The notes under the pieces were generated by a model. It was not told the DNA's origin and did no database searches. It saw only the letters and a list, made by a program, of their open reading frames with translations. A DNA stretch of 41,654 nucleotides from Babesia bigemina (Eukaryota). Position numbers and translations under genes: made by a program. Positions 51 through 33,477 of this stretch are shown one piece after another. How positions within the stretch are numbered: the stretch's first letter is position 1; every line of letters begins with the position of its first letter. The stretch covers positions 1 to 41,654 of the forward strand of contig NW_012237372.1 in assembly GCF_000981445.1 (NCBI RefSeq), in the 5' to 3' direction.

Positions 51-71
51 AATAATCACCACTTTGGTCAC

Positions 72-728
72 CATGTCATCGCTGCCGTGACCATGTCATC
101 GCTGCCGTAACCATGTCATCGCTGCCGTGACCATGTCATCGCTGCCGTGCCCATGACATCGCTGCCGTGACCATGTCATCGCTGCCGTGACCATGTCATC
201 GCTGCCTAACCATGTCATCGCTGCCGTGACCATGTCATCGCTGTTGTGACCATGTCATCGCTACTGTGTCCATGTCATCGCTGCCGTGACCATGTCATCG
301 CTGCCGTGACCATGTCATCGCTGCCGTGACCATGTCCTCGCTGCCGTGACCATAACAATGTCATCGCTGCCGTAACCATGTCATCGCTGCCGTGACCATA
401 ACAATGTCATCGCTGCCGTGACCATGTCATCGCTGCCGTGACCATAACAATGTCATCGCTGCCGTAACCATGTCATCGCTGCTTAACCATTCCATCGCTG
501 CCGTGACCATGTCATCGCTGCCGTGACCATGTAATCGCTGCCGTAACCATGTCATCGCTGCCGTGACCATGTCACCGCTGCCGTAACCATGTCATCGCTG
601 CCGTAACCATGTCATCGCTGCCGTAACCATGTCATCGCTGCCGTAACCATGTCATCGCTGCCGTAACCATGTCCTCGCTGCCGTGACCATGACATCGCTG
701 CCGTAACCATGACATCGCTGCCGTGACC
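72..728. repeat. 20-bp minisatellite (CATGTCATCGCTGCCGT(G/A)AC), ~32 units
   Basis: Direct tandem repeat; a few units carry a 6-bp insertion (ccataacaatg). Confidence 0.97.
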
Positions 729-734
729 GCTAAC

Positions 735-957
735 TTGGTCAGGTGCTTGGTCATGGCATTGGTCAGGTGCTTGGTCACCGCTTTGGTCAACACGTTGGTC
801 AGCACTTTGGTCAGCACGTTGGTCACCACCTTGGTCAGCACGTTGGTCACCACTTTGGTCATGGCATTGGTCAACACATTGGTCAACACGTTGGTCAGCA
901 CTTTGGTCAACACTTTGGTCAGCACCTTGGTCAGCACTTTGGGCAGCACTTTAGTTA
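735..957. repeat. 12-bp minisatellite (TTGGTCA(G/A/C)CAC(T/G/A/C)), ~18 units
   Basis: Direct tandem repeat; source of the spurious VLTK/LVST/GQHF ORFs. Confidence 0.95.
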
Positions 958-1076
958 ACTACTACACAATCACATACAACGATTAGTGAGTGATGCAACA
1001 GATTAAAGTACAATTCATGAGTTAGGTGAGTAGGTGATATGCTAGGTGAGTGTAGGTAGTAAACACGTGAGTACGA
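958..1076 (-). promoter_or_regulatory. Conserved 3' flank / putative 3'UTR of NRVFYLQP-type genes
   Basis: Closely similar ~115-bp blocks at 27973-28087 and 36393-36511, each directly after the stop codon; contains clustered ACTCAC (sense) motifs. Confidence 0.6.
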
Positions 1077-4000: not shown

Positions 4001-5820
4001 CCATCGATTGCGGAAATATATGACTCCACTTCCTGTAACCACGTATCTAATTTGCTTTCCACTTCTTCGGCAACATCGAGTATCCTATTAATGCTTGTAG
4101 TTAGCGATCTCATGTTGGTGGGTAAGGTTTTAGTGATGCTTGTAAGCGTTGAGTCTGGTACATTCGTATTGGTCGATTGAGTTTTAAGATTCGAAATGTC
4201 GTTTTTGATGCCTTGAACTAACTGCCCTATACGCTGTAAATCGCCTTTTGAATTTTCCATGAATTTCTCAATATTGATTTTCATAGATCCGTACTTTTTA
4301 AGTACCGTATTACCTCTCTCGGCTGCCTTCGCATCAAGCGTCTTAATTACGCTTTCTAAAACATTATTTATGAATTCAGAACAAAGGCCAGCATATGCTT
4401 CACCATCACTTAAACTTGTAACGTATTCGTTCATCAATTTTGTGATTTGTATACGCAAGCTGTCTAGATCTGTCTCTATCGCTTTAGGAAATATTTCTAC
4501 TGCATTATTTAGATCTTCGGCAAATCCTTCAAGCACTGGTTGGTTTTTCATACGGATACCGATGGACATCAAATCATTCAGCGGCTGAACCACCTTTTTT
4601 ATTTCCGCAAGCGCCGTATGAATCTTAGGATAACGATCTTCGAATATCAAAATATCGTCGCCGACGTAACTGCGGGATGCTACTAATTTCTCTTTATTGT
4701 TCTTAACCCAGTCGCTCAATGGTTGGTAAATGTCTTTTTTCATGGTACTTTGAAATGCGTTCATTTTGTTTCTAATATCATTTAATAGAGCCTCCACTTT
4801 TGTCCTAGTCTCATCATCGACTTTTCTATGTATGTCATTGCACCTCTCAACAACTTTCTTAATGCTGTATTCCAAATCGTGACTCTGATTCTGACACGAA
4901 AATTGCAGCACGTCTAATTCACGTTTCATGGCATTTATAGCATTATTAACATTATTACGAGTGTCGAAATTCAAATCAGCAATCTCAGTCTGCAAAGTCT
5001 TAGTAGTCTCGGTGAATCCGACAGTCGCCTTAATTGAATCCTTTAACTTCCGGTTCACGTCATCAACCGCTTGCTTAGCGACATCGGCGTCCCCCGTCCT
5101 CAGGATCATAGTAGTACCTGCAACAGCATTATCATTTAATATAGCACTTACCTGAGTTTTAAGCTCTTTCATCTCCCCTTCAAGCTTTTTTATTGGTTGT
5201 TTAACTTTCTCATTCCCCTCCTGCACTTCCCTGTTATACCCCGCGATGCGAGCAGGCAACTCGGTGAAAAGCCTTTTAAAGCCCTCGTGACCTGAGCAAA
5301 GATGTTTGTTAATAAGCGTTAAAATGTTGTTAATTAATATATTTTTACCCACACTGTAAGGCTGTTTCTCGCTGACATCCCTAAGCACCTGATACAAAAA
5401 TCCCATCACTGCATCACAAAGCCTATCCAAGTCAGAGTACACAATCCCCTGGCCAGTGTAGCCTTTTGACTCAGAGTTGAAGCCGAGGAAAGTTTCGAGG
5501 CCAGAACAAAGATTCTCTAAAAGATTTTGGCAATTGTCATTTTTAGTCAATCCTTCAAGACTCTCTTTAAGTTTTTCAAGCTGAGACAACTTGGAGTCAA
5601 TGTCCTGCAAGGCTTTCTTAGTAGCATCGTCAGTAAGAGAATGGTCAGTATCAGCAAGTTATTATAATGGTTTAAAGAGGTCATAGCGTTAATAAGACGA
5701 ACTGATTCGAGATATTTGGAGATAGGGTGAACATGATGGCACATGGCAGTGGCAAGAGGTGGAAGAAGGGAAGTGAAGGGTGACGAGGCACAAGTTATTA
5801 GGATGGTTTAAAGAGGTCAT
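1077..5820 (-). pseudogene. ves: ves-like gene E (variant erythrocyte surface antigen superfamily), frameshifted and 5'-interrupted
   Basis: ORF 2167-5610 (GIVYSDLDRLCDAVMGFL motif) and ORF 1077-2276 (Cys-rich domain, TM, ...RVNKLNRVFYLQP) together form one gene homologous to A-D. Frameshift near 2255-2280. The ORF-track start at 5610 is TTG. The leader ATG at 5820 is in frame but is followed by in-frame TAA stops (5689-5691 and ~5660). Confidence 0.85.
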
Positions 5821-5850
5821 AGCGGTATTATTGCGAGGTAATTCGAGGGA
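5650..5850 (-). other. Conserved leader element (MTSLNHPNNLCLVTL-encoding), here in two diverged copies
   Basis: 5790-5850 matches 16737-16797, 27107-27167 and 33420-33480; 5654-5712 is a second, diverged copy (caagttattataatggtttaaagaggtcatagcg). Confidence 0.8.
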
Positions 5851-6697
5851 TGTGGAGTGGATTAAGGAGCGATGTAGAGTGGGTTAAGGAGCGATGTAGA
5901 GTGGATAAAGGAGCGATGTAGAGTGGGTAAAGAAGCGATGTAGAGTGGGTTAGGGAGCGATGTAGAGTGGGTTAAGGGGCGATGTAGAGTGGATAAAGGG
6001 GCGATGTAAGGTGGATTAGGGAGCGATGTAGAGTGGATAGAGGAGCGATGTGGAGTGGGTTAAGGGGCGATGTAGGGTGGGTAAAGGGGCGATGTAGAGT
6101 GGATTAAGGGGCGATGTGGAGTGGGTTAAGGGGCGATGTAGAGTGGACAAAGGAGCGATGTGGAGTGGGTTAGGGAGCGATGTGGAGTGGGTTAAGGGGC
6201 GATGTGGAGTGGGTTAGGGAGCGATGTAGAGTGGACAAAGGGGCGATGTAGAGTGGTTAAAGGAGCGATGTGGAGTGGGTTAGGGAGCGATGTAGAGTGG
6301 GTAAAGGGGCGATGTGGAGTGGACTAAGGGGCGATGTGGAGTGGGTTAGGGAGCGATGTAGAGTGGGTTAAGGAGCGATGTAGAGTGGGTTAAGGGGCGA
6401 TGTAGAGTGGATAGAGGAGCGATGTAGAGTGGATAAGGGAGCGATGTAGAGTGGGTAAGGGGCGATGTAGAGTGGGTTAAGGGGCGATGTAGAGTGGATA
6501 AAGGGGCGATGTAGAGTGGATAGAGGAGCGATGTAGAGTGGGTTAGGGAGCGATGTAGAGTGGGTAAAGGGGCGATGTAGAGTGGGTAAAGGGGCGATGT
6601 AGAGTGGGTAAAGGCGCGATGCAGAGTGGGTTAAGGAGCGATGTGGAGTGGGTAAAGGGGCGATGTGGAGTGGATAAAGGGGCGATGTAGAGTGGGT
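5849..6697. repeat. 22-bp G-rich minisatellite, ~38 units
   Basis: Tandem CGATGTAGAGTGGGTTAGGGAG / CGATGTAGAGTGGATAAAGGGG variants. Confidence 0.97.
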
Positions 6698-6719
6698 AAT
6701 AATCACCACTTATGTCACC

Positions 6720-7152
6720 ACTGTCATCGCTGCCGTAACCATGTCATCGCTGCCGTAACCATGTCATCGCTGCTGTAACCATGTCATCGCTGCCGTGACC
6801 ATGTCATCGCTGCCGTGACCATGTCATCGCTGCCGTAACCATCAACTGTCATCGCTGCCGTAACCATCAACTGTCATCGCTGCCGTGACCATGACATCGC
6901 TGCCGTAACCATGTCATCGCTGCCGTGACCATGTCATCGCTGCCGTGACCATGTCATCGCTGCCGTGACCATGTCATCGCTGCCGTGACCATGTGATCGC
7001 TGCCGTGACCATGACATCGCTGCCGTGACCATGTGATCGCTGCCGTGACCATGTGATCGCTGCCGTGACCGTGTCATCGCTGCCGTAACCATGTCATCGC
7101 TGCAGTGACCATGTCATCGCTGCCGTGACCATGTCATCGCTGCCGTGACCAT
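6720..7152. repeat. 20-bp minisatellite, ~21 units
   Basis: Tandem CATGTCATCGCTGCCGTGAC. Confidence 0.96.
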
Positions 7153-7156
7153 ACAC

Positions 7157-7490
7157 TTGGTCAGGGGTTAGGTCACCACATTGGTCACCACTTTGGTCAG
7201 CACCTTGGTCAGCACCTTGGTCAGCACCTTGGTCAGCACATTGGTCAGCACATTGGTCAACACATTGGTCAGCACATTGGTCACCACTCTGGTCATGGCA
7301 TTGGTCACCACTTTGGGCAGCACATTGGTCAACACTTTGGTCATGGCATTGGTCAACACATTGGTCAGCACTCTGGTCAACACTTTGGGCAGCATCTTGG
7401 TCAGGTGCTTGGTCACCACGTTAGTCATGGCATTGGTCACCACGTTGGTCACCACGTTGGTCAGCACATCGGCCAGATGCTTGGTCACCT
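7157..7490. repeat. 12-bp minisatellite, ~27 units
   Basis: Tandem TTGGTCAGCACA variants. Confidence 0.95.
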
Positions 7491-8895
7491 CACTGCTCAT
7501 GTGCCTGGTCATCAACGCAATCATTACTCTGTCTAGCACATTAGATGTAGTTGCCAGTTAGGTGATCGGTGGGATTTGGATGAAGAAGTTATGCGCTTAC
7601 AGATTGTTGAGCTCAGCTGTAGAACGCGATGCAGAAGGGTATCTTGCGGACGAGGAAATCGCGGATTCTGTGGCCCACCGGGAAGCGGAAGATGCACAGG
7701 TCGAGCAGGATGATGGCGACGATGATGGCAACGATGACGGCGGCGATGGCGGAGTAGGGAGGGGGGGATGGTCACTTCACTGCTCATGTGATTGTTCATC
7801 AATTCAATCATTACTCTGTCTAGAACATTTGACGTCAGTTGGCAGTTGGGTGATCAGTGGAATTTGGATTACGATGTTTGCACTAACAAATTGCGGAGAT
7901 CAGCTGTAGAACGCGATGCAGAAGGGTATCTTGCGGACGAGGAAATCGCGGATTCTGTGGCCCACCGGGAAGCGGAAGATGCACAGGTCGAGCAGGATGA
8001 TGGCGACGATGATGGCAACGATGACGGCGGCGATGGCGGAGTAGGGAGGGAGGAAGCAGTCACTTCACTGCTCCTGTTATTGATCATCAACGCGATCATT
8101 ATGGTCCACAACATTAGATGTCAGTTGGCAGTTATGTGATCTGTGGAATAAGGATTAAGAAATTTGCGCCAACCAAATTGCGGAGATCAGCTGTAGAACG
8201 CGATGCAGAAGGGTATCTTGCGGACGAGGAAATCGCGGATGTTGCGGCCCACCGGGAAGCGGAAGATGCACAGGTCGAGCAGGATGATGGCGACGATGAT
8301 GGCAACGATGACGGCGGCGATGGCGGAGTAGAGAGGGAGGAAGCAGTCACTTCACTGCTCCTGTTATTGATCATCAACGCGATCATTATGGTCCACAACA
8401 TTAGATGTCAGTTGGCAGTTATGTGATCTGTGGAATAAGGATTAAGAAATTTGCGCCAACCAAATTGCGGAGATCAGCTGTAGAACGCGATGCAGAAGGG
8501 TATCTTGCGGACGAGGAAATCGCGGATGTTGCGGCCCACCGGGAAGCGGAAGATGCACAGGTCGAGCAGGATGATGGCGACGATGATGGCAACGATGACG
8601 GCGGCGATGGCGGAGTAGGGAGGGGGGGATGGTCACTTCACTGCTCATGTGATTGTTCATCAATTCAATCATTACTCTGTCTAGAACATTTGACGTCAGT
8701 TGGCAGTTGGGTGATCAGTGGAATTTGGATTACGATGTTTGCACTAACAAATTGCGGAGATCAGCTGTAGAACGCGATGCAGAAGGGTATCTTGCGGACG
8801 AGGAAATCGCGGATGTTGCGGCCCACCGGGAAGCGGAAGATGCACAGGTCGAGCAGGATGATGGCGACGATGATGGCAACGATGACGGCGGCGAT
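7480..8895 (-). repeat. Five tandem 287-bp units, each a TM/cytoplasmic-tail coding segment plus 3' spacer; four are orphan copies
   Basis: TGA stops (plus-strand tca) at 7613, 7900, 8187, 8474 and 8761, exactly 287 bp apart; each unit encodes IAAVIVAIIVAIILLDLCIFRFPVG(RN/HR)IRDFLVRKIPFCIAFYS*. Confidence 0.93.
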
Positions 8896-9273
8896 AACTT
8901 GGGGGGAAGGGGGGGGAAGTGGAGAAATGTTTTCATCGGACTCAGAGCCTACAAAAGGAGAAAAAGCGGTATGCTCTGCACTGCTTAAGGAATGAACACC
9001 AGAGGCGGCAACTTCTTCACGTGGACGTTTCTCAAGACAGCATCGACATTCACATGTCTCTTTGTGACACTTATTACATGTCCTTTTCTCATCGCACTGG
9101 TAATTTCGATTTCTGCTATCTTTGCGTTTTTGGAAATAATACCAACAGCCATTGCAACCCCAGCCATTTGTACATATTTTACAACACCAGGGACAGCAGT
9201 AACAAACTTCATACGTTCGACATCCATAATCACACTCACCACACGGATGACCTCTAATGTACGACCTCCCCAT
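8761..9273 (-). CDS. Small Cys-rich single-TM protein 1 (170 aa, 18 Cys in the first 79 aa, C-terminal TM and basic tail)
   Basis: True ATG at 9273 with an in-frame TGA shortly upstream; Cys pattern conserved with paralog 18939-19370; hydrophobic VIAAVIVAIIVAIILLDLCIF segment. Confidence 0.82.
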   Translation of the reverse strand: MGRSYIRGHPCGECDYGCRTYEVCYCCPWCCKICTNGWGCNGCWYYFQKRKDSRNRNYQCDEKRTCNKCHKETCECRCCLEKRPREEVAASGVHSLSSAEHTAFSPFVGSESDENISPLPPPSPQVIAAVIVAIIVAIILLDLCIFRFPVGRNIRDFLVRKIPFCIAFYS

Positions 9274-9284
9274 CTTCCTGTTTC

Positions 9285-9750
9285 CCTCCCAATCCCCTCA
9301 ACCTGCGAACATATCAAGCACTCAAGCTAAGCACTCACCAACGACAACACGTACCACTGCCGCGCCCAGCCCCTCAACCTGCAAACATCAATCACTCACG
9401 CAGCACTCACCAACTGCAACACTACCACTGCCGCGCCCACTCCCCTCAACCTGCGAACATATCAATCACATAACCAACGCACTCACCAACTGCAACGCGT
9501 ACCACTGCCGCGCCCAGTCCCCTCAACCTGCAAACATGTCAATCACATAAGCAGCACTCACCAACCACAACACTACCACTGCCGCGCCCAGTCCCCTCAA
9601 CCTGCAAACATGTCAATCACCTAGCAACGCACTCACCAACTGCAACACTACCACTGCCGCTCCCACTCCCCTCAACCTGCGAACATACCAATCACCTAGC
9701 AACGCACTCACCAACTGCAACACTACCACTGCCGCTACCAGTCACCTCAT
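9285..9750 (-). repeat. ~75-bp tandem repeat, ~6 units, each with a putative ~35-nt GT-AG mini-intron (5' leader of Cys-rich gene 1)
   Basis: Minus-strand unit ...TTG|GTGAGTGC...ATGTT(T/C)GCAG|GTTGAGGGGA...; the intron closest to the gene is 9303-9338 (36 nt). Confidence 0.8.
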
Positions 9751-10245
9751 CAACACGTACCCTCACCGCTGTGTCCCCCCAGCCCAGGCCACCGACACCC
9801 ACGCTGCCCAGGATACCACAGCTGCGGCTGACGCGACGCATGTGAACAGCAGCAACTGTCACTCTAAATAAATGACAATTCGCAACGCCATAAAAATTGC
9901 AGCGACCCGTGCGCTCAACTCCCACAGTGCAGCAGCACCGTGCTACGAGCCGCGGTATCGGCGCCATACTGGCGGAGCGTGTCGGCTACGTGCCTAAATG
10001 TGATATTAACAATCGCTACATTGCCGCCTATAAATGCTACTTAACCGGGCCAACGCGGATTACGCCACCCTGCCAGTGACTCGCAACACACGACTTGGGT
10101 CACCCGCCGCGGCCCTCACGGCCGCCTACGCCAGCAACCTATCACCCAGCCTCACTCGACACTGACTCAATGGGCAACGCGGACGCCTCTAACAGTCATC
10201 GCGTAACTCAACGTGCTACAACACCCACCAAATTACGGTGCAGCC
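9750..10245. promoter_or_regulatory. Conserved ~500-bp non-repetitive spacer, putative promoter of Cys-rich gene 1
   Basis: Colinear and highly similar to 20450-20955; indels break any shared ORF; lies upstream of the small gene. Confidence 0.55.
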
Positions 10246-10248
10246 GCC

Positions 10249-10767
10249 AGCTCAGCACTTTGCCTGTGTGCTAGCTAAGCACTTAGTCTGCGTGCTAGCT
10301 CAGCACTTTGCCTGATAGCTACCTTAGCACTTTGCCTGGTTGCTAGCTTATCACGTTGCCTGGTTGCTGGGTTAGCACTTAGCCTGGGTGCTAGCTTAGC
10401 ACTTTGCCTGGTTGCTAGCTTAGCACTTTGCCTGGGTGCTAGCCTAGCACGTTGCCTGGGTGCCAGCTTAGCACTTAACCTGGTTACTAGCTCAGCACTT
10501 TGCCTGAGTGCTAGCTTACCACTTAGCCTGGTTGCCAGCTTACCACTTTGCCTGGATGCTTGCTTAACACTTTGCCTGGGTGCCAGCTTAGCACTTTGCC
10601 TTGTTGCTACCTTAGCACTTAGCTTGTGTGCTTGCTTAGCACTTTGCCTGGTTGCTTGCTTAGCACTTTGCCTGGGTGCTAGCTTAGCACTTTGCCTGTG
10701 TGCCAACTTACCACTTTGCCTGGGTGCTAGCTTACCACTTAGCCTGAGTGCTAGCTTAGCACGTTGC
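10249..10767. repeat. 24-bp minisatellite (AGCTTAGCACTTTGCCTGGGTGCT), ~21 units
   Basis: Direct tandem repeat; source of the spurious RQSAKLAP ORF. Confidence 0.95.
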
Positions 10768-10912
10768 TTCGTCGTTTAGTCATAACCTAATCCAAGTGCC
10801 ATTTAGTTCACAGGTTGCCGCTAGAGTAATTCGAGACATTAGACTACGTTTGTCAGCTAAGTGAGTAGGTGAGTTGTTACGTGAGTTGTGTGAATTACAA
10901 ATGTGACGATGA

Positions 10913-13900
10913 TCACGGTTGCAGGTACGATATCTTGGCAAGCCTTCCGACTTGCGCCGCCGCCAACAATGACTGCGCCGTTATCTTGTGCGACGACGGT
11001 ACCCTCAGGTGTGACCTAATGTGGAGCACATCCAGTCTGCCAACCATTACGCAGATGAGGTAGAAGAGGGACAGCGACCAGAGTGCGACATTGAGCCAGA
11101 TGAAGGGCTGCCTGATGGTGAATAGGAAATCCGGAAGTTTTTTAAAAACCAAATCGGCAAGTACGTGCCCGCGGTTTTCTTCTTTGTTGAGTACCCTTTC
11201 TAGGGCCTTGCAGAGATCTTTGCAGGATCGTTTCGTCGCATTGTTATACGATCCGCTGAGATCCGATGCACTTCCATAATAGAAGCCATATTTGAATAAG
11301 TTGGGAAGCGATGATTGGCATTGTACTATTGATTTGCAGGCCTCATCGTGATTGAGAGCTGGGCTTTCAGTGGTAGAAACAACGGCACGGCAATTCTTAA
11401 CGCACGTCTGCTGCTGACATCTGGACTTTGGTGAGCCACACCTGCTCTTGCAATCGTCAAGCAGTTTAGAGAGCAGATCATAGAACGTCTCCGTCAGGTA
11501 TACAATCCACGACAGATATTTGTCAGCGTGTTCCTTTGAATACATGTTACAAATGTCTCCGCAGAGAGGTTGGAGGTATGATCCGCACGTGCCGACGGGG
11601 TCCAGTGCTGCTTTCTCACCGTTGCATTTGACAAGCATGAACAGGTCTCCTTTGACGTGAGTCGTTGACGTGCCTGTATGCGCAGTGCTCTCGAACAGTG
11701 GAGAGATGTCCAACTCTGTACTGGAATCCCCGAAGTTCGCATCTTGAACGGCATTTCTATAAGCATCTTCCCTGTGCTCCTTGCGATTTTTGTCCTGCTG
11801 CTCCCATCTATTGAGGAACCCGTAATAGAACCCGAACATCTCACCGAGTGTTTTCGGCGCACTGAGAATAGCACAATTCAATAGACTGCACATCTTTGCT
11901 AGAGGAGACATCTGATTGCCGCAGAAGCCAGCAAGCACATCCGCGATGCGGTGACCTGTTTGAGTGACGGAAGCAACGTGACTGATGTCGGCAAAGCCCA
12001 TCGGCGTGATACACTGTATGCCGGCATGAGACTTAACGTTGCACTCCAGTTTGCCTTTTTCATATTTGATTTGATGAGGTAAGAAACCCTGGAGGCCGTC
12101 TTCCAAAAACGACTGAAGTGGCGATTTTACTCCGCACTTAGGGTGTAACTTACAGTTTTGGTTCCTCTTTTGGTCAGCTATTTGCTTGCACGTTTGGTCA
12201 GCACATTGGTTGGTATTGCACCGCCATGACGAGCCGCCGACGTCTCTACCGTACTCACATTCCAGCCAACCGCTCAGCGAAGTGCCGTACTGACACTGTT
12301 GGAATAGGAAGTGCAGCTGAAGGTACACGCGATTTACAATCTCACGCAACATACACAATAACGTGTCCATATTACCGGGATACATGAACCCGTCGTAGTT
12401 GGTATTGAACTCACAAGCGTAGATGCCATCGGCGTGACCATTGCCAAGCAGACAGGTGAGCACGTCCTGGGAGTAGTGGCAGACATCAATAAGTACATCT
12501 CTTAGTTGGCGAGTTGTGACGTCATACGGGTACGCCGACAGAGACGCGGGCTTCTCATCTATAATAGGGATGTCACCAGTCGTAGCTGCAGCTTCCGTCT
12601 CCTTTTTGTCTTTCTCAAACAGCACATCGAAGCCGTTGAGTGTCAGGTCGTTGTAGACGGTACTGGAAGTGAGGCCGCACAGCCACTTGAGCATGTCAAA
12701 TACGGTGCACGGATATTTCCTCGCGGCGAAATGCGGTAGATGACATACGCTGTAGTAAGCGTGGAGGTGGTCGACGAGCTGCTTCAGGATGCCATACTGC
12801 TTTGCACTGGCTGCGTCGTCTGTCTGCGGTTGTCTATGCAAAACGGCATCGTCAAGATCTTCTTTGGTGACAAGCTTATATTTGGTAGTCCCTTGTGTTG
12901 GTATTTCTGCATCCAACTTCTTGTGAATATGCCCGCCCCTGCACTTCACCGTATTCCGCAGCTCCCCGTTATGCTTGTTCGGGCCTGAGCAGACAGTGTA
13001 ACCGCAGCGCTGGAAAAACCTTCCGAGTGGATTGGTGATTGTATTACCGTGTTGCGCAGCTTCGGTTAGCGAAATAGTTTTGTGCTCCCAGGCAGCTTTA
13101 CTCGAGCAGTTTTGCCGAAGCTCATGCAGACCGTCGAAGAGCATTTGCAAGCAACTGAAAAAAACTTTACCGCACTTCAACGCTTCTCCAGTAGGCTCGT
13201 TTTCTCCAGTCTTAGACCCCTCAACGTTCTTCAACCACTCAATGGTTTTCCCCGAGTACCTGCTGACGTACTGCTTCGCGAGCTCCCCGTGGAACGCCCG
13301 GACGCCGGCCTTGACGACGTTGAGCAGCGGGGAGGCGTCGGCGAATGAGGAGGGGGTGAGGGTGTCGAGCGCGGATTGGAGTTCGGCGAGGCGAGAGGAG
13401 ACGTCGGCGTGGAAGTGGCGTTGGGTGTTCATTGTGGACAGGAGGGCGGAGAGGGCGTCGGCGAGGGGGGTGAGGCGGTCGGGGGAGAGGTCGGTGAGGT
13501 GAGATAATGCTGCTAAGAAATTTGCGAAGAAGTTCTTCACTCTGTTAGAGTAAGCGTCGAAAGATGTACCGGAAGTGTGAAGTAGCGTCGTTATGACGGT
13601 AAACGTTTTCATGAGCCCTTTGAGGCCTGCTTTAGCATCATCATCAATAATTTTTTGAAGCATCGGAATTTGAGTTCCAACGCACTTCTGAACCATTTTT
13701 AATTCGGATTTTTTCTGTGCGTCAAACATTTCTTGAACGTTGTATTCCAAATCAGCGAATGCCTGAGTTACCTGCTTTTGTAGGTGAGTCTGCAGAGCTG
13801 GCAGAGCAAACTTTACGAAGCTTCGGGTACTACTTACGGAGCTTTCTAGAGTGTCAATAACCTTATTGAACGCCTTTTCGGCTGATTCAACGAGTGGCAT

Positions 13901-16732
13901 AATGTGCTCAATGGCCTTTTGTATTTTCGTTATCTCAGCTTTCAGGTTGTCCATGGTTTCATCAGCCTCGCCGCTTTTGCTGGTGACATATGCTGGAAGT
14001 TGATTCAACAGATCAAGCTGTTTTCCTATTAAAGAAACAGCAGTAGTCAGAGACGTGTTCGCCTCTTCAAACTGCTCCATAATAGTCTTGACGTCAATGG
14101 TATCATTGCTACTTTGTGTATTGAAACATTTCACGGCTTCTTCAATAGCTGTATCCGCGGCGTCTTTGATACGGTCCCTAGCTTCTTCATCGAACATAGA
14201 TATGGAGTCGTTAAGGTTGTCAACAGCTGCGATTAACGCGTCGAGTTTGCTTTGTACATCTGCTTCCGTTGATTTTGCAGTCTTTGACGATGATCGTAAC
14301 TCAGTGAGCTTCGCTTCGAAATCTTTGAATTGAATCTGAAAATCATCAGGGCTCTGGTCATTCAAAGGATTTTTAATTCTTTTAATTTCTATATCAATTT
14401 TACCATAGATGCCGACGTTGTTCATAGCAACTCCCTCACCATTGATATTCTTGCGAAGGTTTTCGGCATAATCTTCTGTCCCCTTTTTAGCTGCAGCTTC
14501 AAGGAGATCTTCCAGCTGTGTACTTTTAGCCGCTTCAATTTTCATATTGATCTGCTCAGATATTGCGGATTTCATGGATTCTAGGAGTTCCGACGATTTG
14601 GAGAGTGGGTGGGTTTTCCATTGCGCATTAGCTTCATGGAGACTTTTCAAACATATTTCTAGATAATGAACAACTTTGTTGGATGATTGCAGTTTTGCTT
14701 GCTGAATTAGTGTTTGCAGCTGATTGCCGCTTGATTTCAATGTTGCTATAAGTTTATCCAATCCGTCATGTGAGCCGTTACTAGGATAATTCGTTGCAGC
14801 ATTTACACCCGCCTGCAACGCATTCTTCAACTCCTCCACATACGCATTTACCACTTTGTTTATTTCAACGTAGAGTAAATCAACATGGCTCTTCAACTTC
14901 CCATCCTTAAGATTCTTAAACTCCGCGTTCACCGAATTCTTCACTGTCGTGTGGATGTTCTTGAGCGTCGCCAGCTGCTCTTCGATTCGTTCCGCCAACC
15001 GACTTAGCTGAATCTTAACGTTGCCCATGCTAACGTCGGTGGCCTGCCGCGTTAACGTATTGAATTTTGGTTTAAACGTTAGATGGTATGTAGTCTTAAG
15101 ATTATTAGATGGCCCAGAAGCTGCTAGGTACGCCGCATCCAGCCTACTTTTCTGTTTTTGAAGTTTCTCAAAAGCTTTCTGAACAAGAATATTTTTAATA
15201 GGTTCGCTGTGTACAGTGTCGGCCAGTGTTTCAATCTTATTCTTCAAACTCTCCAACCCATGGCGAACGTTCTCCTCCAAGCCGGCTACCCCGCTCTTGA
15301 GCTTCTCAAACTCAGCAGACAGCGGGGTGCTATTATCCGTAAACTTCTCAATCTCCGTTTTTATATTCGCAAACTTCAGACCAAAGCCTTTCTTATAATT
15401 CTCAAACCCATTATCTCCCTTATCACCAACCAATTTTTCACCCAACTGCTCTGCCGTCCGAATGGCCCTTTTAATTGCACCAACGTGATAATCTTTATCG
15501 TGCCTGAGACTGCTGATATTTCGACCTATCTCGGCAAAATTACCATTCAATGACACGTGCAATTCCTGTATATTCTTTTCAATTCCTTGGTTAACGTTTT
15601 GCGGAAGGTCTGCCAGCTTAGCCTTAACCGCCCCGACAGTACGCTTCACGCTCTCATCATTTACGGTTGCTTCGAAATTCTCAACTACCATTTTTACTAA
15701 CTCCATTCCGGGTGACAATTTATTTTTTAGGTTTTCATCGATGCCATCCAACGCCGATTCTAAGTCCAATAGATCACCAACGTAGTCACCTGCAATGCCT
15801 TGCCAGTTCTCCAATTGCTCTGTAACCGGCTTGTCTTCCATTGATGCCGTTAAATGGCCTTTTATTCTTAATTGCAGATATTCTAATGGCCTTGTTACCG
15901 CTTTATTTTTCCCCTCCACCCCCCTCACCCATTCCCTAATCCCCTGACTGACAAAGGCAATACTACTATCAAAATGCGTTTTTCTATTATATTTAGCGAG
16001 TTCAATGCTATTTAATATTGTTTGTAAATTGCCATTATAAATAGTTAAATTTGTATCTTTTTTTACGTCAGTGATTATACTAAGCAAAAATCCCATCACC
16101 CCGTCACACAGCCTGTCAAGGTCAGAGTAGACAATCCCACTGCCATCGTAGCCTTTGGAGTCAGGGTTGAAGCCGAGGAAGGTTTCGAGGCCGGAACATA
16201 AATGCGTTAAAATATTATTATTATTAGTTTTATCAAGTTCTTCAGCAAATTTCTTAAGCTTCTCAACAATTTCTCTCTGCTGCCTCACTTCCTCCAATCC
16301 CTTCTGCCTCTCCTCCTCAGGGAGGTAATGGGTCTTAGCACAGTCATTTTTAGCATCTTCGGCTTTTTTGATTTGAGATTTTAGGGCAGCAATTTCTTTC
16401 TTTTTAGAGTCTTCAGATTGCGTAGATTCAGACTGTTTAGTTTTAAGTTCATTTTTAGCTTTTTCAATTTCAGCATCCTGCTTCTTACAACAGGGCTGGA
16501 CAGAGGGGTCAGAAGAGGAGGAGTCAGAAGGTTTATCAGTAGGTTTTCCACGGCAAAGAAGCTTGGATTCGCGTTCATCAAGGGACTTATTAGCGTTACC
16601 TATAGCCTCCTCAATCAACTTATTCAAAGCTTGAGACAACTGGTCAAGACCTTCATCACCTTGACCATTCCCATACCTAAGCTGGATCAACCAGTCGATG
16701 GACTCAGTCAGAAGGGAAGCGAAGGGTGACAA
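10913..16732 (-). CDS. ves: ves-like gene D, ~1940-codon open frame with AKISYLQP tail and no in-frame 5' ATG (possibly a silent cassette)
   Basis: ESIDWLIQ N-terminal motif, GIVYSDLDRLCDGVMGFL, Cys-rich C-terminal domain, TM (FIWLNVALWSLSLFYLICVMVG). The start at 16732 is TTG; leader ATG 16766 is out of frame and stops at 16704-16706; first in-frame ATG is at 16096. Confidence 0.88.
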   Translation of the reverse strand: MSPFASLLTESIDWLIQLRYGNGQGDEGLDQLSQALNKLIEEAIGNANKSLDERESKLLCRGKPTDKPSDSSSSDPSVQPCCKKQDAEIEKAKNELKTKQSESTQSEDSKKKEIAALKSQIKKAEDAKNDCAKTHYLPEEERQKGLEEVRQQREIVEKLKKFAEELDKTNNNNILTHLCSGLETFLGFNPDSKGYDGSGIVYSDLDRLCDGVMGFLLSIITDVKKDTNLTIYNGNLQTILNSIELAKYNRKTHFDSSIAFVSQGIREWVRGVEGKNKAVTRPLEYLQLRIKGHLTASMEDKPVTEQLENWQGIAGDYVGDLLDLESALDGIDENLKNKLSPGMELVKMVVENFEATVNDESVKRTVGAVKAKLADLPQNVNQGIEKNIQELHVSLNGNFAEIGRNISSLRHDKDYHVGAIKRAIRTAEQLGEKLVGDKGDNGFENYKKGFGLKFANIKTEIEKFTDNSTPLSAEFEKLKSGVAGLEENVRHGLESLKNKIETLADTVHSEPIKNILVQKAFEKLQKQKSRLDAAYLAASGPSNNLKTTYHLTFKPKFNTLTRQATDVSMGNVKIQLSRLAERIEEQLATLKNIHTTVKNSVNAEFKNLKDGKLKSHVDLLYVEINKVVNAYVEELKNALQAGVNAATNYPSNGSHDGLDKLIATLKSSGNQLQTLIQQAKLQSSNKVVHYLEICLKSLHEANAQWKTHPLSKSSELLESMKSAISEQINMKIEAAKSTQLEDLLEAAAKKGTEDYAENLRKNINGEGVAMNNVGIYGKIDIEIKRIKNPLNDQSPDDFQIQFKDFEAKLTELRSSSKTAKSTEADVQSKLDALIAAVDNLNDSISMFDEEARDRIKDAADTAIEEAVKCFNTQSSNDTIDVKTIMEQFEEANTSLTTAVSLIGKQLDLLNQLPAYVTSKSGEADETMDNLKAEITKIQKAIEHIMPLVESAEKAFNKVIDTLESSVSSTRSFVKFALPALQTHLQKQVTQAFADLEYNVQEMFDAQKKSELKMVQKCVGTQIPMLQKIIDDDAKAGLKGLMKTFTVITTLLHTSGTSFDAYSNRVKNFFANFLAALSHLTDLSPDRLTPLADALSALLSTMNTQRHFHADVSSRLAELQSALDTLTPSSFADASPLLNVVKAGVRAFHGELAKQYVSRYSGKTIEWLKNVEGSKTGENEPTGEALKCGKVFFSCLQMLFDGLHELRQNCSSKAAWEHKTISLTEAAQHGNTITNPLGRFFQRCGYTVCSGPNKHNGELRNTVKCRGGHIHKKLDAEIPTQGTTKYKLVTKEDLDDAVLHRQPQTDDAASAKQYGILKQLVDHLHAYYSVCHLPHFAARKYPCTVFDMLKWLCGLTSSTVYNDLTLNGFDVLFEKDKKETEAAATTGDIPIIDEKPASLSAYPYDVTTRQLRDVLIDVCHYSQDVLTCLLGNGHADGIYACEFNTNYDGFMYPGNMDTLLCMLREIVNRVYLQLHFLFQQCQYGTSLSGWLECEYGRDVGGSSWRCNTNQCADQTCKQIADQKRNQNCKLHPKCGVKSPLQSFLEDGLQGFLPHQIKYEKGKLECNVKSHAGIQCITPMGFADISHVASVTQTGHRIADVLAGFCGNQMSPLAKMCSLLNCAILSAPKTLGEMFGFYYGFLNRWEQQDKNRKEHREDAYRNAVQDANFGDSSTELDISPLFESTAHTGTSTTHVKGDLFMLVKCNGEKAALDPVGTCGSYLQPLCGDICNMYSKEHADKYLSWIVYLTETFYDLLSKLLDDCKSRCGSPKSRCQQQTCVKNCRAVVSTTESPALNHDEACKSIVQCQSSLPNLFKYGFYYGSASDLSGSYNNATKRSCKDLCKALERVLNKEENRGHVLADLVFKKLPDFLFTIRQPFIWLNVALWSLSLFYLICVMVGRLDVLHIRSHLRVPSSHKITAQSLLAAAQVGRLAKISYLQP

Positions 16733-16910
16733 GGCACAAGTTATAAGGATGGTTTAAAGAGGACATAGCGGTAATATGGCGAAATAATTCGAAGGATGTA
16801 GAGTGGACAAAGGGGCGATGTAGAGTGGGTAAAGGGGCGATGTAGAGTGGGTTAAGGAGCGATGTAGAGGAGGTGAAGGGGCGATGTAGAGTGGGTAAAG
16901 GAGCGATGTA
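16085..16910. repeat. ~826-bp block apparently identical to 32768-33593
   Basis: Identical translations of the first ~216 codons of D and B, with matching leader and first 22-mer units; constant offset of 16683 bp. Confidence 0.9.
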
Positions 16911-18124
16911 GAGTGGGTTAAGGGGCGATGTGGAGTGGATAGAGGGCCGATGTAGAGTGGATAAAGGAGCGATGTAGAGTGGATAAGGAGCGATGTAGAG
17001 TGGATAAGGGGGCGATGTAGAGTGGATAAAGGGGCGATGTAGAGTGGGTTAGGGAGCGATGTAGAGTGGGTTAAGGGGCGATGTAGAGTGGGTTAGGGAG
17101 CGATGTAGAGTGGATAAAGGGGCGATGTAGAGTGGGTTAGGGAGCGATGTAGAGTGGATTAGGGAGCGATGTAGGGTGGGTTAGGGAGCGATGTAGAGTG
17201 GGTTAGGGAGCGATGTAGAGTGGATAAAGGGGCGATGTGGAGTGGGTTAAGGAGCGATATAGAGTAAGTTAGGGAGCGATGTGGAGTGGGTTAAGGAGCG
17301 ATATAGAGTGGATAAAGGGGCGATGTAGAGTGGGTTAGGGAGCGATGAAGAGTGGGTTAGGGAGCGATGTAGAGTGGATAAGGGGCGATGTAGAGTGGGT
17401 TAGGGAGCGATGTAGGGTGGGTTAAGGGGCGATGAAGGGTGGATAAAGGAGCGATGTAGAGTGGATAAAGGAGCGATGTAGAGTGGATAAAGGGGCGATG
17501 TAGAGTGGATAAAGGGGCGATGTAGAGTGGGTTAGGGAGCGATGTAGAGTGGATAAAGGGGCGATGTGCAGTGGATAGAGGAGCGATGTAGAGTGGATAA
17601 GGGGCGATGTAGAGTGGGTTAAGGGGCGATGTGGAGTGGATAAAGGGGCGATGTGGAGTGGGTTAGGGAGCGATGTGGAGTGGGTAAAGGAGCGATGTAG
17701 AGTGGATTAAGGAGCGATGTGTAGTGGGTAAAGGAGCGATGTGTAGTGGGTAAAGGAGCGATGTAGAGTGGGTAAAGGGGCGATGTAGAGTGGATAAGGG
17801 GCGATGTAGAGTGGGTTAAGGAGCGATGTAGAGTGGGTAAGGGAGCGATGTAGAGTGGATTAGGGAGCGATGTAGAGTGGATAAGGGGCGATGTAGAGTG
17901 GGTTAGGGAGCGATGTGGAGTGGATAAAGGAGCGATGTAGGGTGGAGTAAGGGGCGATGTGGAGTGGGTTAGGGAGCGATGTAGAGTGGGTTAGGGAGCG
18001 ATGTAGAGTGGGTTAGGAAGCGATGTAGAGTGGGTTAGGAAGCGATGTGGAGTGGATAAGGGAGCGATGTGGAGTGGATTAGGGAGCGATGTAGAGTGGA
18101 TAAAGGGGCGATGTAGAGTGGGTT
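16796..18124. repeat. 22-bp G-rich minisatellite, ~60 units
   Basis: Direct tandem repeat. Confidence 0.97.
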
Positions 18125-18144
18125 ATAATCACCACTTTGGTCAC

Positions 18145-18330
18145 CATGTCATCGCTGCCGTGACCATCAACTGTCATCGCTGCCGTGACCATGACATCGC
18201 TGCCGTAACCATGTCATCGCTGCCGTGACCATGTCATCGCTGCCGTAACCATGTCATCGCTGCCGTAACCATGTCATCGCTGCCGTAACCATGTCATCGC
18301 TGCCGTAACCATGTCATCGCTGCCGTGTCC
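18145..18330. repeat. 20-bp minisatellite, ~9 units
   Basis: Direct tandem repeat. Confidence 0.95.
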
Positions 18331-18337
18331 ACTAACT

Positions 18338-18550
18338 TGGTCAGGTGGTTGGTCAGCACATAGGTCAGCACCTTGGTCAGCACTCTGGTCAGCACATTGG
18401 TCAGCACTTAGGTCAGCACTTAGGTCATGGCATTGGTCAGCACATTTGTCAACACGTTGGTCACCACGTTGGTCAACACTTTGGTCAACACATTGGTTAG
18501 CACTTTGGTCAACACATTGGTCACCAGTTTGGGCTGGTGGTTGGTCACCT
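18338..18550. repeat. 12-bp minisatellite, ~17 units
   Basis: Direct tandem repeat. Confidence 0.93.
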
Positions 18551-18670
18551 CGCTGCTCATGTAATTGGTCATCAACGCAATCATTACTGTCTAGCACATT
18601 AGATGCCAGTTGCCAGTTAGGTGATCAGTGGGATTTGGATTACGATGTTTGCGTCAACAAATTGCTGATC

Positions 18671-18853
18671 TCAGCTGTAAAACGCGATGCAGAAGGGTAT
18701 CTTGCGTACGAGGAAATCGCGGATGTTGCGGCCCACCGGGAAGCGGAAGATGCACAGGTCCAGCAAGATGATGGCGACGATGATGGCAACGATGACGGCG
18801 GCGATGGCGGCAACGATGACGGCGGCGATGGTTTCGGGGGAAGGGAAAGATGG
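18671..18853 (-). pseudogene. Orphan TM-tail segment (CIAFYS type) with a 24-bp internal duplication
   Basis: Reads *PSFPSPETIAAVIVAAIAAVIVAIIVAIILLDLCIFRFPVGRNIRDFLVRKIPFCIAFYS*; no ATG, and an in-frame TGA immediately upstream (18854-18856). Confidence 0.85.
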
Positions 18854-18938
18854 TCACCTCACTGCTCATTTGATTGATCAACGCAATCATTACTTTGTCT
18901 AGAACGTTAGATGTCAGTTGCCAGTTAGGTTATTGTTA

Positions 18939-19370
18939 TTAGCTGCGCAGTAGATACCGCACCCTGTGGAACGGCCGGATGCGGAAGTAGATCATGACGC
19001 AGACGACGACGATGATGAGGGCGACCGGGACGATGATGATGGGGAGGAGAAGGGAAGGAAATGATGATGAGTCGTCGGTGTGAGGGGACACAAGCAGTTG
19101 ACGGGAAGCGGCGGGGCGTTTATTTAAACAACATTGACATTCGCAAGTGGGCTCCTTGCCCTTACATCTGATATCGCATACAGAAGGCTCGCAAGTATAA
19201 TTCGATTTCAATTGAACATTGTGTACATAGTGCAAGTAACATGGAGTACAAGGGTAATCACTAGGATTACAATTCTCACAACACCAGAAACAACAATCGC
19301 ACTTCTTATACGGTATACATTTGTTAACTGTACATTTACACGTTCTATCATCACCATCATAACCGTCCAT
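18939..19370 (-). CDS. Small Cys-rich single-TM protein 2 (143 aa, 18 Cys in the N-terminal domain, different TM tail)
   Basis: True ATG at 19370 in the same GGAAGATGG context as paralog 1; shared CxCCxWCCxxC, NYxC and TCECxCCLxKRP motifs; TM LLLPIIIVPVALIIVVVCVMIYF followed by RIRPFHRVRYLLRS. Confidence 0.82.
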   Translation of the reverse strand: MDGYDGDDRTCKCTVNKCIPYKKCDCCFWCCENCNPSDYPCTPCYLHYVHNVQLKSNYTCEPSVCDIRCKGKEPTCECQCCLNKRPAASRQLLVSPHTDDSSSFPSLLLPIIIVPVALIIVVVCVMIYFRIRPFHRVRYLLRS

Positions 19371-19382
19371 CTTCCCCTTCCC

Positions 19383-20450
19383 CTCCCAGTCCCCTCAACC
19401 TGCAAACATCAATCACCTAAGCAACGCACTCACCAACTGCAACACGTACCACTGCCGCTACCAGTCCCTCAGCCTGCGAACATATCAGTCACTCAAGCAG
19501 CACTCACCAACTGCAACACGTACCACTGCCGCTCCCACTCCACTCAACCTGCGAACATGTCAATCACCTAGCAACGCACTCACCAACTGCAACACGTGCC
19601 ACTGCCGCTCCCAGTCCTCTCAACCTGCAAACATATCAGTCACCTAGCAAGCACTCACCAACTGCAACGCTACCACTGCCGCTCCCAGTCCCCCCAGCCT
19701 GCTAGCATATCAATCACCTAGCAACGCACTCACCAATTACAACACGTACCACTGCCGCTACCAGTCCCCTCAACCTGCAAACATATCAATCACTCAAGCA
19801 GCACTCACCAATTGCAACACGTACCACTGCCGCTCCCACTCCCCTCAACCTGCTAACATATCAATCACTCAAGCAACGCACTCACCAACTGCAACACGTG
19901 ACACTGCCGCTCCACTCCCCTCAACCTGCAAACATATCAATCACTAACCAACGCACTCACCAACTGCAACACGTACCACTGCCGCTCCCACTCCCCTCAA
20001 CCTGCAACTATATCAATCACTCAAGCAGCACTCACCAACTGCAACACGTACCACTGCCGCTCCCAGTCCCCTCAACCTGCAGACATATCAATCACCTAGC
20101 AACGCACTCACCAACTGCAACACGTAACACTGCCGCGCCCAGTCCCCTCAGCCTGCAAGCATATCAATCACCTAGCAAGCACTCACCAACTGCGACACGT
20201 AACACTGCCGTTCACACTCCCCTCAGCCTGCTAACATATCAATCACTAAGCAACGCACTCACCAACTGCAACACGTACCACTGCCGCTCCCAGTCCCCTC
20301 AACCTGCAAACATATCAATCACCTAAGCAGCACTCACCAACAGCAACACTACCACTGCCGCTCCCAGTCCCCTCAACCAGCTAACATCAATCACTCAAGC
20401 AGCACTCACCAACTGCAACACTACCACTGCCGCTCTCACTCCCCTCATCA
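19383..20450 (-). repeat. ~75-bp tandem repeat, ~14 units, each with a putative mini-intron (5' leader of Cys-rich gene 2)
   Basis: Measured unit lengths 74-76 bp (starts 19621, 19695, 19771, 19846); the intron closest to the gene is 19400-19433 (34 nt). Confidence 0.82.
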
Positions 20451-20955
20451 ACACCTCCCCTCACCCCTGTATCCCCCCAGCCCAGGCCGCCGACACCCAC
20501 GCTGCCCGGGATACCACAGATGCCCTGACGCGACGCATGTGATCGGCACCAACTGTCACTCTAAATTATTCATTATTCGCAACGCCATAAAAATTGCAGC
20601 GAACCCCGTGCGCTCAACTCCCACAGTGCAGCAGCACCGTGCTACCAGCCGCGGTATCGGCGCCATGCTGGCGGAGCGTGTCGGCTAGGTGCCCAAATGT
20701 GATATTAACGATGGCTACATCGCTGCATATAAATGCCATTTAACCAGGCCAACTCGGATTACGCCACCGTGCCAGTGACTCGCAACACACGACTTAGGTC
20801 ACCCGCCGCGGCGCTCACGGACGCCTACGTTAGCAACCAATCACCCAGCCTCACGTGACACTGACTCAATGGGCAACGCGGACACCTCTCACAGTCAACG
20901 CACAACTCAACTCACCAGACAATCAACGTGCTACAACACCTACTAAATTACGGTT
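20450..20955. promoter_or_regulatory. Conserved ~500-bp spacer, putative promoter of Cys-rich gene 2
   Basis: Paralogous to 9750-10245. Confidence 0.55.
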
Positions 20956-20962
20956 CATCCGC

Positions 20963-21267
20963 CAGCTTCGCACTTTGCCTTGATGCCAGCTTATCACTTT
21001 GCCTGGGTGCCAGCTTAACACTTTGCCTGGCTGCCAGCTTAACACTTTGCCTGGTTGCTAGGTCAACACGTTGCCTGGGTGCCAGCTTAGCACTTTGCCT
21101 GCGTGCTTGCTTAGCACTTTGCCTGGTTGCTACCTTACCACTTTGCCTGGGTGCTAGCTTACCACGTTGCCTGGGTGCTAGCTTAGCACTTTGCCTGGTT
21201 GCCAGCTTTGCACTCTGCCTGGTTGCTAGCTTACCACTTTGCCTGGGTGCTAGGTCATCACGTTGCA
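20963..21267. repeat. 24-bp minisatellite, ~12-13 units
   Basis: Same unit as 10249-10767. Confidence 0.94.
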
Positions 21268-21412
21268 TCGTCGTATAGTCATCACCTAATCTAGCTGCTA
21301 TCTGATTCACAGGTTGCCGCTAGAGTAAGTCAAAACATTAGACTACGTTTGTCGGTTAGGTGAGTAGGTGAGTAGTTACGTGAGTTACAGTGAGTTACAA
21401 ATGTGAATACAA

Positions 21413-27164: not shown

Positions 27165-27441
27165 GATGTAGAGTGGATTAGGGAGCGATGTAGAGTGGGT
27201 AAAGGGGCGATGTGGAGTGGGTTAGGGAGCGATGTGGAGTGGGTAAAGGGGCGATGTAGAGTGGGTTAAGGGGCGATGTAGAGTGGATAAAGGAGCGATG
27301 TAGAGTGGATAGAGGAGCGATGTAGAGTGGGTTAAGGGGCGATGTAGAGTGGGTTAAGGGGCGATGTAGAGTGGGTAAAGGGGCGATGTAGAGTGGGTTA
27401 GGGAGCGATGTAGAGTGGGTTAAGGGGCGATGTAGAGTGGA
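27165..27441. repeat. 22-bp G-rich minisatellite, ~12 units
   Basis: Direct tandem repeat. Confidence 0.96.
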
Positions 27442-27464
27442 TGATCATCACCACTTAAGTCACC

Positions 27465-27527: not shown

Positions 27528-27530
27528 CAA

Positions 27531-33415: not shown

Positions 33416-33477
33416 GGCACAAGTTATAAGGATGGTTTAAAGAGGACATAGCGGTAATATGGCGAAATAATTCGAAG

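What the first reader, a model, noticed from the sequence alone, without database searches (positions are those of the whole stretch)
8761..19370. Small hypervariable 18-cysteine single-TM gene family embedded in the ves array
Seen: two ORFs (8761-9273, 18939-19370) have real ATGs in the same context (GGAAGATGG). Each has exactly 18 Cys in about 80 N-terminal residues with a shared scaffold (CxCCxWCCxxC ... CxxC ... NYxC ... TCECxCCLxKRP), while most residues between the cysteines differ. Each ends in a Ser/Pro linker, one TM helix and a short basic tail, and has no N-terminal signal peptide. Established: B. bovis ves loci are accompanied by SmORFs, which are signal-peptide proteins, and VESA1 contains Cys/Lys-rich domains; I do not recognise a named family with this architecture. 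Inference: a variant mini-antigen or metal/disulfide-knotted partner of VESA under diversifying selection.
Basis: partly seen in the sequence, partly recalled or inferred. Interest (0 to 1): 0.9.

Follow-up and report, generated by a model that had tools for sequence, protein, structure and literature searches.

The report
Unnamed cysteine-knot Babesia membrane protein family
These two short genes belong to a family of at least 50 annotated but unnamed Babesia bigemina genes, often next to the parasite's large variable surface-antigen genes, that encode a small membrane-anchored protein with fixed cysteines and highly variable sequence between them, which likely acts as a miniature variable surface antigen, although its expression and location are untested.

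Summary
Both minus-strand ORFs are intact, have 18 domain cysteines, one C-terminal transmembrane helix and no signal peptide. They belong to a family with 51 'hypothetical' hits, all named B. bigemina. A profile search of 1.84 billion proteins gave 35 hits, none over 280 aa. No Pfam, PDB, Atlas or ves1 C-terminal match was found, and I found no description in print. Among tail-A members, cysteines are 98% and the TM/tail 97% conserved against 22% between cysteines. 8 of 28 members sit next to a listed ves1b (0.6 expected). New here: each gene rides in a conserved cassette with a 75-bp repeat whose units look like 32-36 nt introns holding 21 of 23 nearby upstream ATGs, and start-less copies of the TM-tail. 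Best reading: a miniature, signal-less, disulfide-knotted variant membrane antigen, diversified by recombination. Weak points: no expression evidence was obtained, only 17 of 57 database models have the full domain, dN/dS of the window pair is below 1 with saturated dS, and topology is inferred.

The parts
8761..9273 (-). Gene 1, 170 aa, 18-Cys domain, Ser/Pro linker, TM helix, type A tail
9037..9243 (-). Cys scaffold of gene 1 (residues 11-79)
8839..8895 (-). Predicted TM helix of gene 1 (residues 127-145)
   Evidence: hydropathy; helix 124-146
18939..19370 (-). Gene 2, 143 aa, 18-Cys domain, linker, TM helix, type B tail
19128..19340 (-). Cys scaffold of gene 2 (residues 11-81)
18996..19052 (-). 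Predicted TM helix of gene 2 (residues 107-125)
   Evidence: helix 110-134
9288..9749 (-). 75-bp tandem repeat directly upstream of gene 1; 6 units, each a predicted 32-36 nt GTGAGT..CAG intron plus a 40-41 nt exon
   Evidence: splicing is predicted, not shown
19383..20447 (-). 75-bp tandem repeat directly upstream of gene 2; 14 units, 13 with CAG acceptor, 1 with CTG
9750..10250 (-). Non-repetitive upstream segment, candidate promoter and first exon; 91% identical to 20448-20965
20448..20965 (-). Second copy of the upstream segment
10249..10767 (.). 24-bp repeat between the ves1 stop and the cassette (second copy at 20964-21253)
7482..8895 (-). 287-bp tandem array: the TM-tail of gene 1 plus four start-less, frame-intact copies of the type A TM-tail (8477-8632, 8190-8351, 7903-8064, 7616-7771)
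18674..18853 (-). Start-less type A TM-tail copy downstream of gene 2
10913..16753 (-). ves1-type ORF (1946 aa stop to stop) upstream of gene 1 on the same strand; subtype ves1b inferred
   Evidence: degenerate ves1 motif described in PMC6630957
21413..27010 (-). ves1-type ORF (1865 aa stop to stop) upstream of gene 2 on the same strand; subtype ves1b inferred

Best explanation
These are two intact members of a B. bigemina multigene family of small single-pass membrane proteins with a fixed 18- or 20-cysteine scaffold, highly variable loops and a near-invariant TM and tail, which likely work as miniature variant surface antigens. Shown: the architecture, the family, the conservation pattern, the ves1b linkage and the cassette. 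Inferred steps: (1) the gene is transcribed from the conserved upstream segment and the 75-bp units are spliced out of the 5' leader, which removes most upstream ATGs; (2) the TM helix acts as an uncleaved signal-anchor with the basic tail in the cytoplasm and the Cys domain outside, the route described for signal-less VESA1; (3) the cysteines form 9 or 10 disulfides that hold variable loops towards the host; (4) variation is kept up by recombination that swaps domain halves and tails, while gene conversion homogenises the TM-tail and the flanks, the start-less TM-tail copies being products of, or donors for, that process.
For: Among 13 tail-A members, mean pairwise identity is 0.98 at Cys columns, 0.22 at other domain columns, 0.28 in the linker and 0.97 in TM/tail. 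17 of 23 columns around the domain that are invariant in 18 members of both tail types are Cys (invariant list: 17 Cys in the domain, one Trp, plus TM residues). The extra Cys come as a pair: 10 of 18 both, 8 of 18 neither. 4 Lys/Arg after the helix and 0 before in both proteins, which points to tail-in topology by the positive-inside rule (rule from general knowledge). VESA1 has no signal peptide, one C-terminal TM and a short conserved cytoplasmic tail (PMC6630957, passages; PMC9477259, passages). Domain is 24% Cys and 13% Lys. 8 of 28 members adjacent to a listed ves1b/ves1ba against 0.59 expected, 13 of 28 within 4 genes against 1.87, 0 of 20000 draws as high. Tail type needs 4 changes on the domain tree (shuffled mean 4.6; starred branches force at least 2) and identities of the two domain halves are uncorrelated (Spearman 0.11); hybrid tails occur (P0052, P0058). 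Flanks of the two genes are 83-91% identical and the domain 51%.
Against: No transcript or peptide evidence was obtained: 0 of 6 member IDs in the PR-strain proteome table (366 quantified proteins, another strain), 0 of 6 in the single-cell supplements, 0 of 39 tagged members among the top differential genes in Tables 2-3 of PMC9806345. Only 17 of 57 database models have the whole scaffold. dN/dS of the window pair is about 0.35-0.5 with dS near saturation, so positive selection is not shown. Tree and half-domain results could also come from saturation (11 of 15 inner branches open; pairs not independent). 15 of 28 members are far from any listed ves1b. A 110-125 residue basic, Cys-rich N-terminus is long for a signal-less protein to translocate, and the 16-25 residue tail also fits a tail anchor. 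Structure models are low-confidence (pLDDT 54 and 56) and say nothing on disulfides.
Confidence: 0.5

Rival explanations
1. Tail-anchored membrane protein whose Cys domain faces the cytosol (of parasite or red cell) and binds Zn or other metals in metallothionein-like clusters, or is palmitoylated.
For: No signal peptide and only 16-25 residues after the helix. CxC, CC and CxxC motifs with 18-20 Cys and many Lys resemble metallothioneins (recalled). AlphaFold gives no confident fold.
Against: No Pfam or PDB match to any metal-binding family. 22% identity between cysteines across dozens of paralogs with a near-invariant TM/tail is the pattern of exposed antigens rather than of housekeeping metal binders (general knowledge). 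Charge bias favours tail-in.
Confidence: 0.2
2. A largely silent, decaying archive: a cassette copied along with ves1b duplications, with few or no copies expressed.
For: 40 of 57 database models lack the whole scaffold and 4 of these match the +1 frame of the domain. Five start-less TM-tail copies in the window. One neighbouring ves1 copy is split in two frames. No expression evidence found.
Against: 17 database models plus 2 of 2 window genes are whole, with invariant Cys despite near-saturated synonymous sites, which needs purifying selection on the protein. The +1 frame of the domain is nearly open by itself (0 and 1 stops) and domain GC3 is 0.35 against 0.9 in the tail, so the ab initio models may be wrong over intact genes.
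Confidence: 0.17
3. A shortened derivative of the ves1 3' end (C-terminal Cys region, TM, tail), the mirror image of ves2, which came from the 5' end.
For: Same order of parts as the VESA1 C-terminus. By eye, C-x2-W-x-C-x2-C-x5-C occurs in gene 1 and in two window ves1 ORFs, and the type B tail faintly resembles the ves1 tail.
Against: Profile-profile comparison with five ves1 C-termini: probability 0.2, E 0.3. Against 300 shuffles each, the best ves1 C-terminus was matched or beaten by 12 of 298, the others by 59 to 292. No hit over 280 aa in 1.84 billion representatives; none among 7993 longer candidates (weak test).
Confidence: 0.08

Closest known systems
smORF (B. bovis)
   Same: Small, variable, multicopy genes interspersed with ves loci (PMC2034396 and PMC6630957, passages).
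   Different: SmORFs have a signal peptide and no TM helix; this family has the reverse and a Cys scaffold. No smORF homologs in B. bigemina.
BbigVes2 (B. bigemina, N = 116)
   Same: Short, ves-associated, same species.
   Different: Ves2 is homologous to the ves1b 5' end, has a predicted signal peptide and no membrane anchor. Three members checked in the cluster table of PMC5660447 carry no VESA label.
VESA1 and its CKRD / C-terminal Cys-rich domain
   Same: No signal peptide, variable Cys/Lys-rich region, one C-terminal TM, short conserved tail.
   Different: One tenth of the size; no detectable homology; B. bigemina VESA lacks CKRD.
Giardia variant-specific surface proteins (recalled, not tested by any search)
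   Same: Variable Cys-rich region on a near-invariant TM and short tail.
   Different: VSPs are larger, built of CXXC repeats and have signal peptides; no profile match here.
Plasmodium PEXEL-negative exported proteins
   Same: Export via a TM domain without a PEXEL (PMC9477259, passage).
   Different: No homology; export of this family is untested.

Membership tests
smORF | N-terminal signal peptide | tested here: not met
   Best 11-residue hydropathy in first 30 aa 0.45 and 0.28; in-frame TGA 9 codons before the ATG in both genes, also after the nearest predicted acceptor
smORF | No TM helix | tested here: not met
   One strong TM helix in each
smORF | Linkage to ves loci | tested here: met
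   8 of 28 adjacent, 13 of 28 within 4 genes of a listed ves1b/ba
BbigVes2 | Homology to the ves1b 5' end | tested here: not met
   Family profiles score no window ves1 frame below E 1; no long hit; no VESA1_N match
BbigVes2 | Secreted, no membrane anchor | tested here: not met
   TM helix present, no signal peptide
VESA1 (ves1) | Conserved VESA C-terminal domain | tested here: not met
   hhalign probability 0.2 (shallow profiles of 18 and 5 sequences); shuffle controls
VESA1 (ves1) | No signal peptide, one C-terminal TM, short tail | tested here: met
VESA1 (ves1) | Exposure on the infected red cell surface and switching | not testable with these tools
   needs antibodies or tagging
6-Cys (s48/45) proteins | s48/45 domain with signal peptide | tested here: not met
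   No such Pfam match in 18 members at E 0.1
Metallothionein | Profile match | tested here: not met
   No Pfam or PDB match
Metallothionein | Metal-thiolate clusters | not testable with these tools
   needs protein chemistry

The most novel reading that the evidence does not exclude
B. bigemina has a fourth, overlooked variant antigen family: a free-standing Cys/Lys knot on its own membrane anchor that supplies in trans the kind of variable Cys/Lys-rich domain its VESA1 lacks. It moves as a cassette behind one ves1b tail type, is switched on only when an expandable array of 6 to 14 mini-introns is spliced out of the leader, and is re-tailed from an array of start-less TM-tail donors.
Probability: 0.2. 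Interest if true: 0.85.

Novelty: new variant of a known kind. Interest (0 to 1): 0.6.

Why it matters
B. bigemina varies antigenically but the role of its VES proteins is unknown (PMC9806345), and it lacks smORF and the CKRD. An unnamed family of 50 or more variable membrane proteins beside ves1b is a concrete candidate for the missing part of that system. Its near-invariant TM-tail gives one primer or antibody target for the whole family, so expression, switching and location can be tested at once. If the 75-bp units are spliced, this is a 5' leader whose intron number changes by repeat expansion, and it explains why public gene models of the family are often wrong.

Tried and rejected
No whole genome is held, so intact copies could not be counted on DNA and dN/dS rests on one pair. 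Sequencing-run search: no RNA holder listed; not used as evidence. Pfam: nothing significant for the two proteins; only scattered TM-type hits in 1 or 2 of 18 members. PDB sequence search: two Vpu TM peptides at E 0.27 and 0.37. AlphaFold2 models at pLDDT 54 and 56; Foldseek on the first gave 0 matches; the second was not searched. ESM Atlas: no hit for the domain of gene 1; for P0005 best feature score 0.85 and best TM-score 0.30, both under the tool's bars. Rfam: 0 matches in 7000-21500. Earlier findings: nothing by sequence, place or words. An N-terminal extension from the repeat (as in many public models) was rejected: any splice into the nearest acceptor meets an in-frame TGA. A conserved two-TM fusion of a type B gene with the downstream type A cassette (as in models P0026, P0030, P0033) was rejected for this window: the predicted 64-nt splice in gene 2 ends in a stop two codons later (read). 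Origin from the ves1 3' end was considered and not supported. Literature searches found no description of the family; one search found 0 papers naming any of 6 member IDs. The library holds open-licence papers only.
Full report
Observation. Both ORFs exist on the minus strand at the stated coordinates: 170 aa and 143 aa, each with its ATG in GGAAGATGG. Each has 18 Cys before a single hydrophobic helix and no hydrophobic N-terminus. A profile of the Cys domain finds only these two among 813 six-frame segments of the window (both are in the profile). In both genes a TGA lies in frame 9 codons before the ATG, inside the last repeat exon, so neither the genomic frame nor a splice into the nearest acceptor can extend the protein.

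Family. The first protein found 36 relatives among 610 candidates and the second 16 among 21; with one shared, that is 51 proteins, all named 'hypothetical protein' of Babesia bigemina, 39 with chromosomal BBBOND tags on chromosomes 1 to 4. An HMMER search of 1.84 billion representatives with an 18-sequence profile gave 35 hits at E 0.001 or better: 29 of those proteins and 6 unnamed ones, the longest 280 aa. The species of the 6 is unknown, so restriction to B. bigemina is shown only for named hits. A search for longer forms scored none of 7993 candidates, a weak test. 17 of the 57 database models have the whole scaffold. The rest are partial. They come from ab initio prediction with manual improvement (PMC4066756, methods section); many begin in the upstream repeat and 4 match the +1 frame of the domain, which is nearly open by itself. 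Without DNA I cannot tell bad models from broken genes, so the intact share lies between about 30% and an unknown upper bound.

Conservation. In the 18 full-length members aligned (16 database, 2 window; P0055 was found later and is not in it), 17 domain cysteines and the tryptophan are invariant. Among the 13 with tail A, identity is 0.98 at Cys columns, 0.22 at other domain columns, 0.28 in the linker and 0.97 in the TM and tail. A further Cys pair is present in 10 and absent in 8, never single; this fits a disulfide but also simple co-inheritance. There are two tail types, A (13) and B (5), with hybrids. Tail type does not cluster on the domain tree (4 changes, shuffled mean 4.6) and the two domain halves are uncorrelated in identity (Spearman 0.11, p 0.18); the tree is poorly resolved, so mosaicism is suggested, not proved. 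For the window pair the domain is 51% identical in DNA while the flanks are 83-91% identical; dN is 0.74 and dS 2.11 with pS 0.70. So the domains are old and constrained at the cysteines, the flanks are homogenised, and positive selection is not shown.

Context. The five large ORFs carry degenerate forms of the ves1 motif quoted in PMC6630957 and a shared C-terminal TM region; Pfam gave no VESA1_N hit for the five large frames scanned, and the ves1b subtype is my inference from size and from the BOND neighbours. The two ORFs ending KISYLQP are each followed by the cassette: 24-bp repeat, 500-bp conserved segment, 75-bp repeat, small gene, TM-tail copies. The three ending RVFYLQP run straight into the 12-bp repeat. 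For BOND, I took the 81 rows labelled ves1b or ves1ba in Table S2 of PMC5660447 (Jackson counts 80 plus 16) and the accessions of 30 of the 51 members, dropping 2 on unplaced contigs. Taking accession order as gene order, 8 of 28 are adjacent to a listed gene (0.59 expected) and 13 of 28 within 4 (1.87 expected), with 0 of 20000 random draws as high; the other 15 are 16 to 235 genes away. ves1a and ves2 were not included in this test.

The 75-bp repeat has 6 units before gene 1 and 14 before gene 2. Aligned on an exon anchor, all 20 have GTGAGTG and 19 have CAG 32-36 nt on; the stretches between are 40-41 nt. 21 of the 23 ATGs in these two stretches lie inside the predicted introns. Gene finders trained on B. 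bovis spliced the same units in many BOND models. All units descend from one ancestor, so they are not independent evidence, and no read data test the splicing. That introns of about 35 nt are usual in Babesia is recalled, not from a call; one search found no paper on it. Downstream, five start-less copies of the type A TM-tail keep their frame. With gene 1's own tail, the six copies are 98% identical in the coding part (4 synonymous and 2 non-synonymous variable codons) and 82% in the spacer.

What is known. Jackson et al. 2014 (PMC4066756; I read sections 8 and 20-23, passages, part 1 of 11 of Table S1 and one ID search) describe ves1a, ves1b, ves1ba and secreted ves2 in B. bigemina, no smORF and no CKRD. 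They mention unnamed 'other multi-copy genes' at ves positions and species-specific genes with a conserved C-terminus and TM, which may include this family; I could not see the figures. Yamagishi et al. 2017 (PMC5660447; parts 2-3 and table searches) list ves, ebh and 6-Cys expansions; 3 of 6 members checked are in their table, in two-gene clusters without a label. Parts or passages of PMC10463595, PMC10471129, PMC9531838, PMC6537212, PMC9477259, PMC6630957, PMC8226867, PMC2034396 and PMC9806345 do not describe it. Eight searches found no description. Homology to the ves1 C-terminus was tested and not found.

Expression. None was found, and the tests were weak: 0 of 6 IDs in a proteome of another strain, 0 of 6 in single-cell supplements, 0 of 39 tagged members in the top differential tables of PMC9806345. 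The full differential list of that paper was not seen.

Mechanism. The pattern of variable loops on fixed cysteines above a near-invariant anchor, the positive charge after the helix (4 against 0), the ves linkage and the precedent of signal-less VESA1 favour a small exported or surface antigen with a disulfide-knotted outer domain (0.5). A cytosol-facing metal-binding tail-anchored protein (0.2), a mostly silent archive (0.17) and a ves1 3' derivative (0.08) remain. That the family is real and constrained at the protein level is much firmer than any of these.

Verdict. An undescribed, sequence-unique family that works like known ves-associated variant families but fails membership of each: new variant of a known kind, interest 0.6.

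Noticed in passing
window 1077-5658 (-): One ves1-type copy is split into two overlapping frames (2167-5658 and 1077-2288): a broken copy or a sequence error.
   Followed up: no
window 16085-16910 and 32768-33593 (-): The ves1 ORFs starting at 16753 and 33436 share 669 identical 5' bases plus 157 upstream bases, then diverge: recent segmental conversion or duplication.
   Followed up: partly
window 5658-5830, 16753-16800, 27010-27100, 33436-33480 (-): The ves1 ORFs have no in-frame ATG at their 5' edge; a conserved short upstream ATG frame follows the 22-bp repeat in each. First exon unresolved; they may be silent donor copies.
   Followed up: no
window 1077, 10913, 21413, 28088, 36512 (ves1 stops): The ves1 tail type predicts the downstream DNA in 5 of 5 cases: KISYLQP is followed by the small-gene cassette, RVFYLQP by the 12-bp repeat.
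   Followed up: partly
window 18899-18962 (-): A possible 64-nt intron in the type B tail (GTGCGG donor, CTAAC, TTCTAG); several public models use it with different read-through frames.
   Followed up: partly
window 986-1060, 21360-21390, 28039-28070, 36461-36490 (+): Just after the ves1 stops the opposite strand carries clustered GTGAGT donor-like words; possible antisense transcript or binding site.
   Followed up: no
BOND genes BBBOND_0312490 and BBBOND_0100160 (PMC9806345 Table 2): Two family members (0312480, 0100170) are next to genes strongly up in kinetes, one a 6-Cys gene; another (0313960) is next to 0313950, up 178-fold in blood stages.
   Followed up: no
P0054: A 65-aa database model made of a TM-tail cassette alone with an in-frame Met; the five such cassettes in this window have none.
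   Followed up: partly
window 70-952, 5845-7469, 16795-18523, 27165-27962, 33478-36384: Every ves1 5' flank has the same ordered 12-, 20- and 22-bp repeat arrays with widely varying copy number (22-bp: 12.5 to 119.5 copies) and strong GC skew.
   Followed up: no
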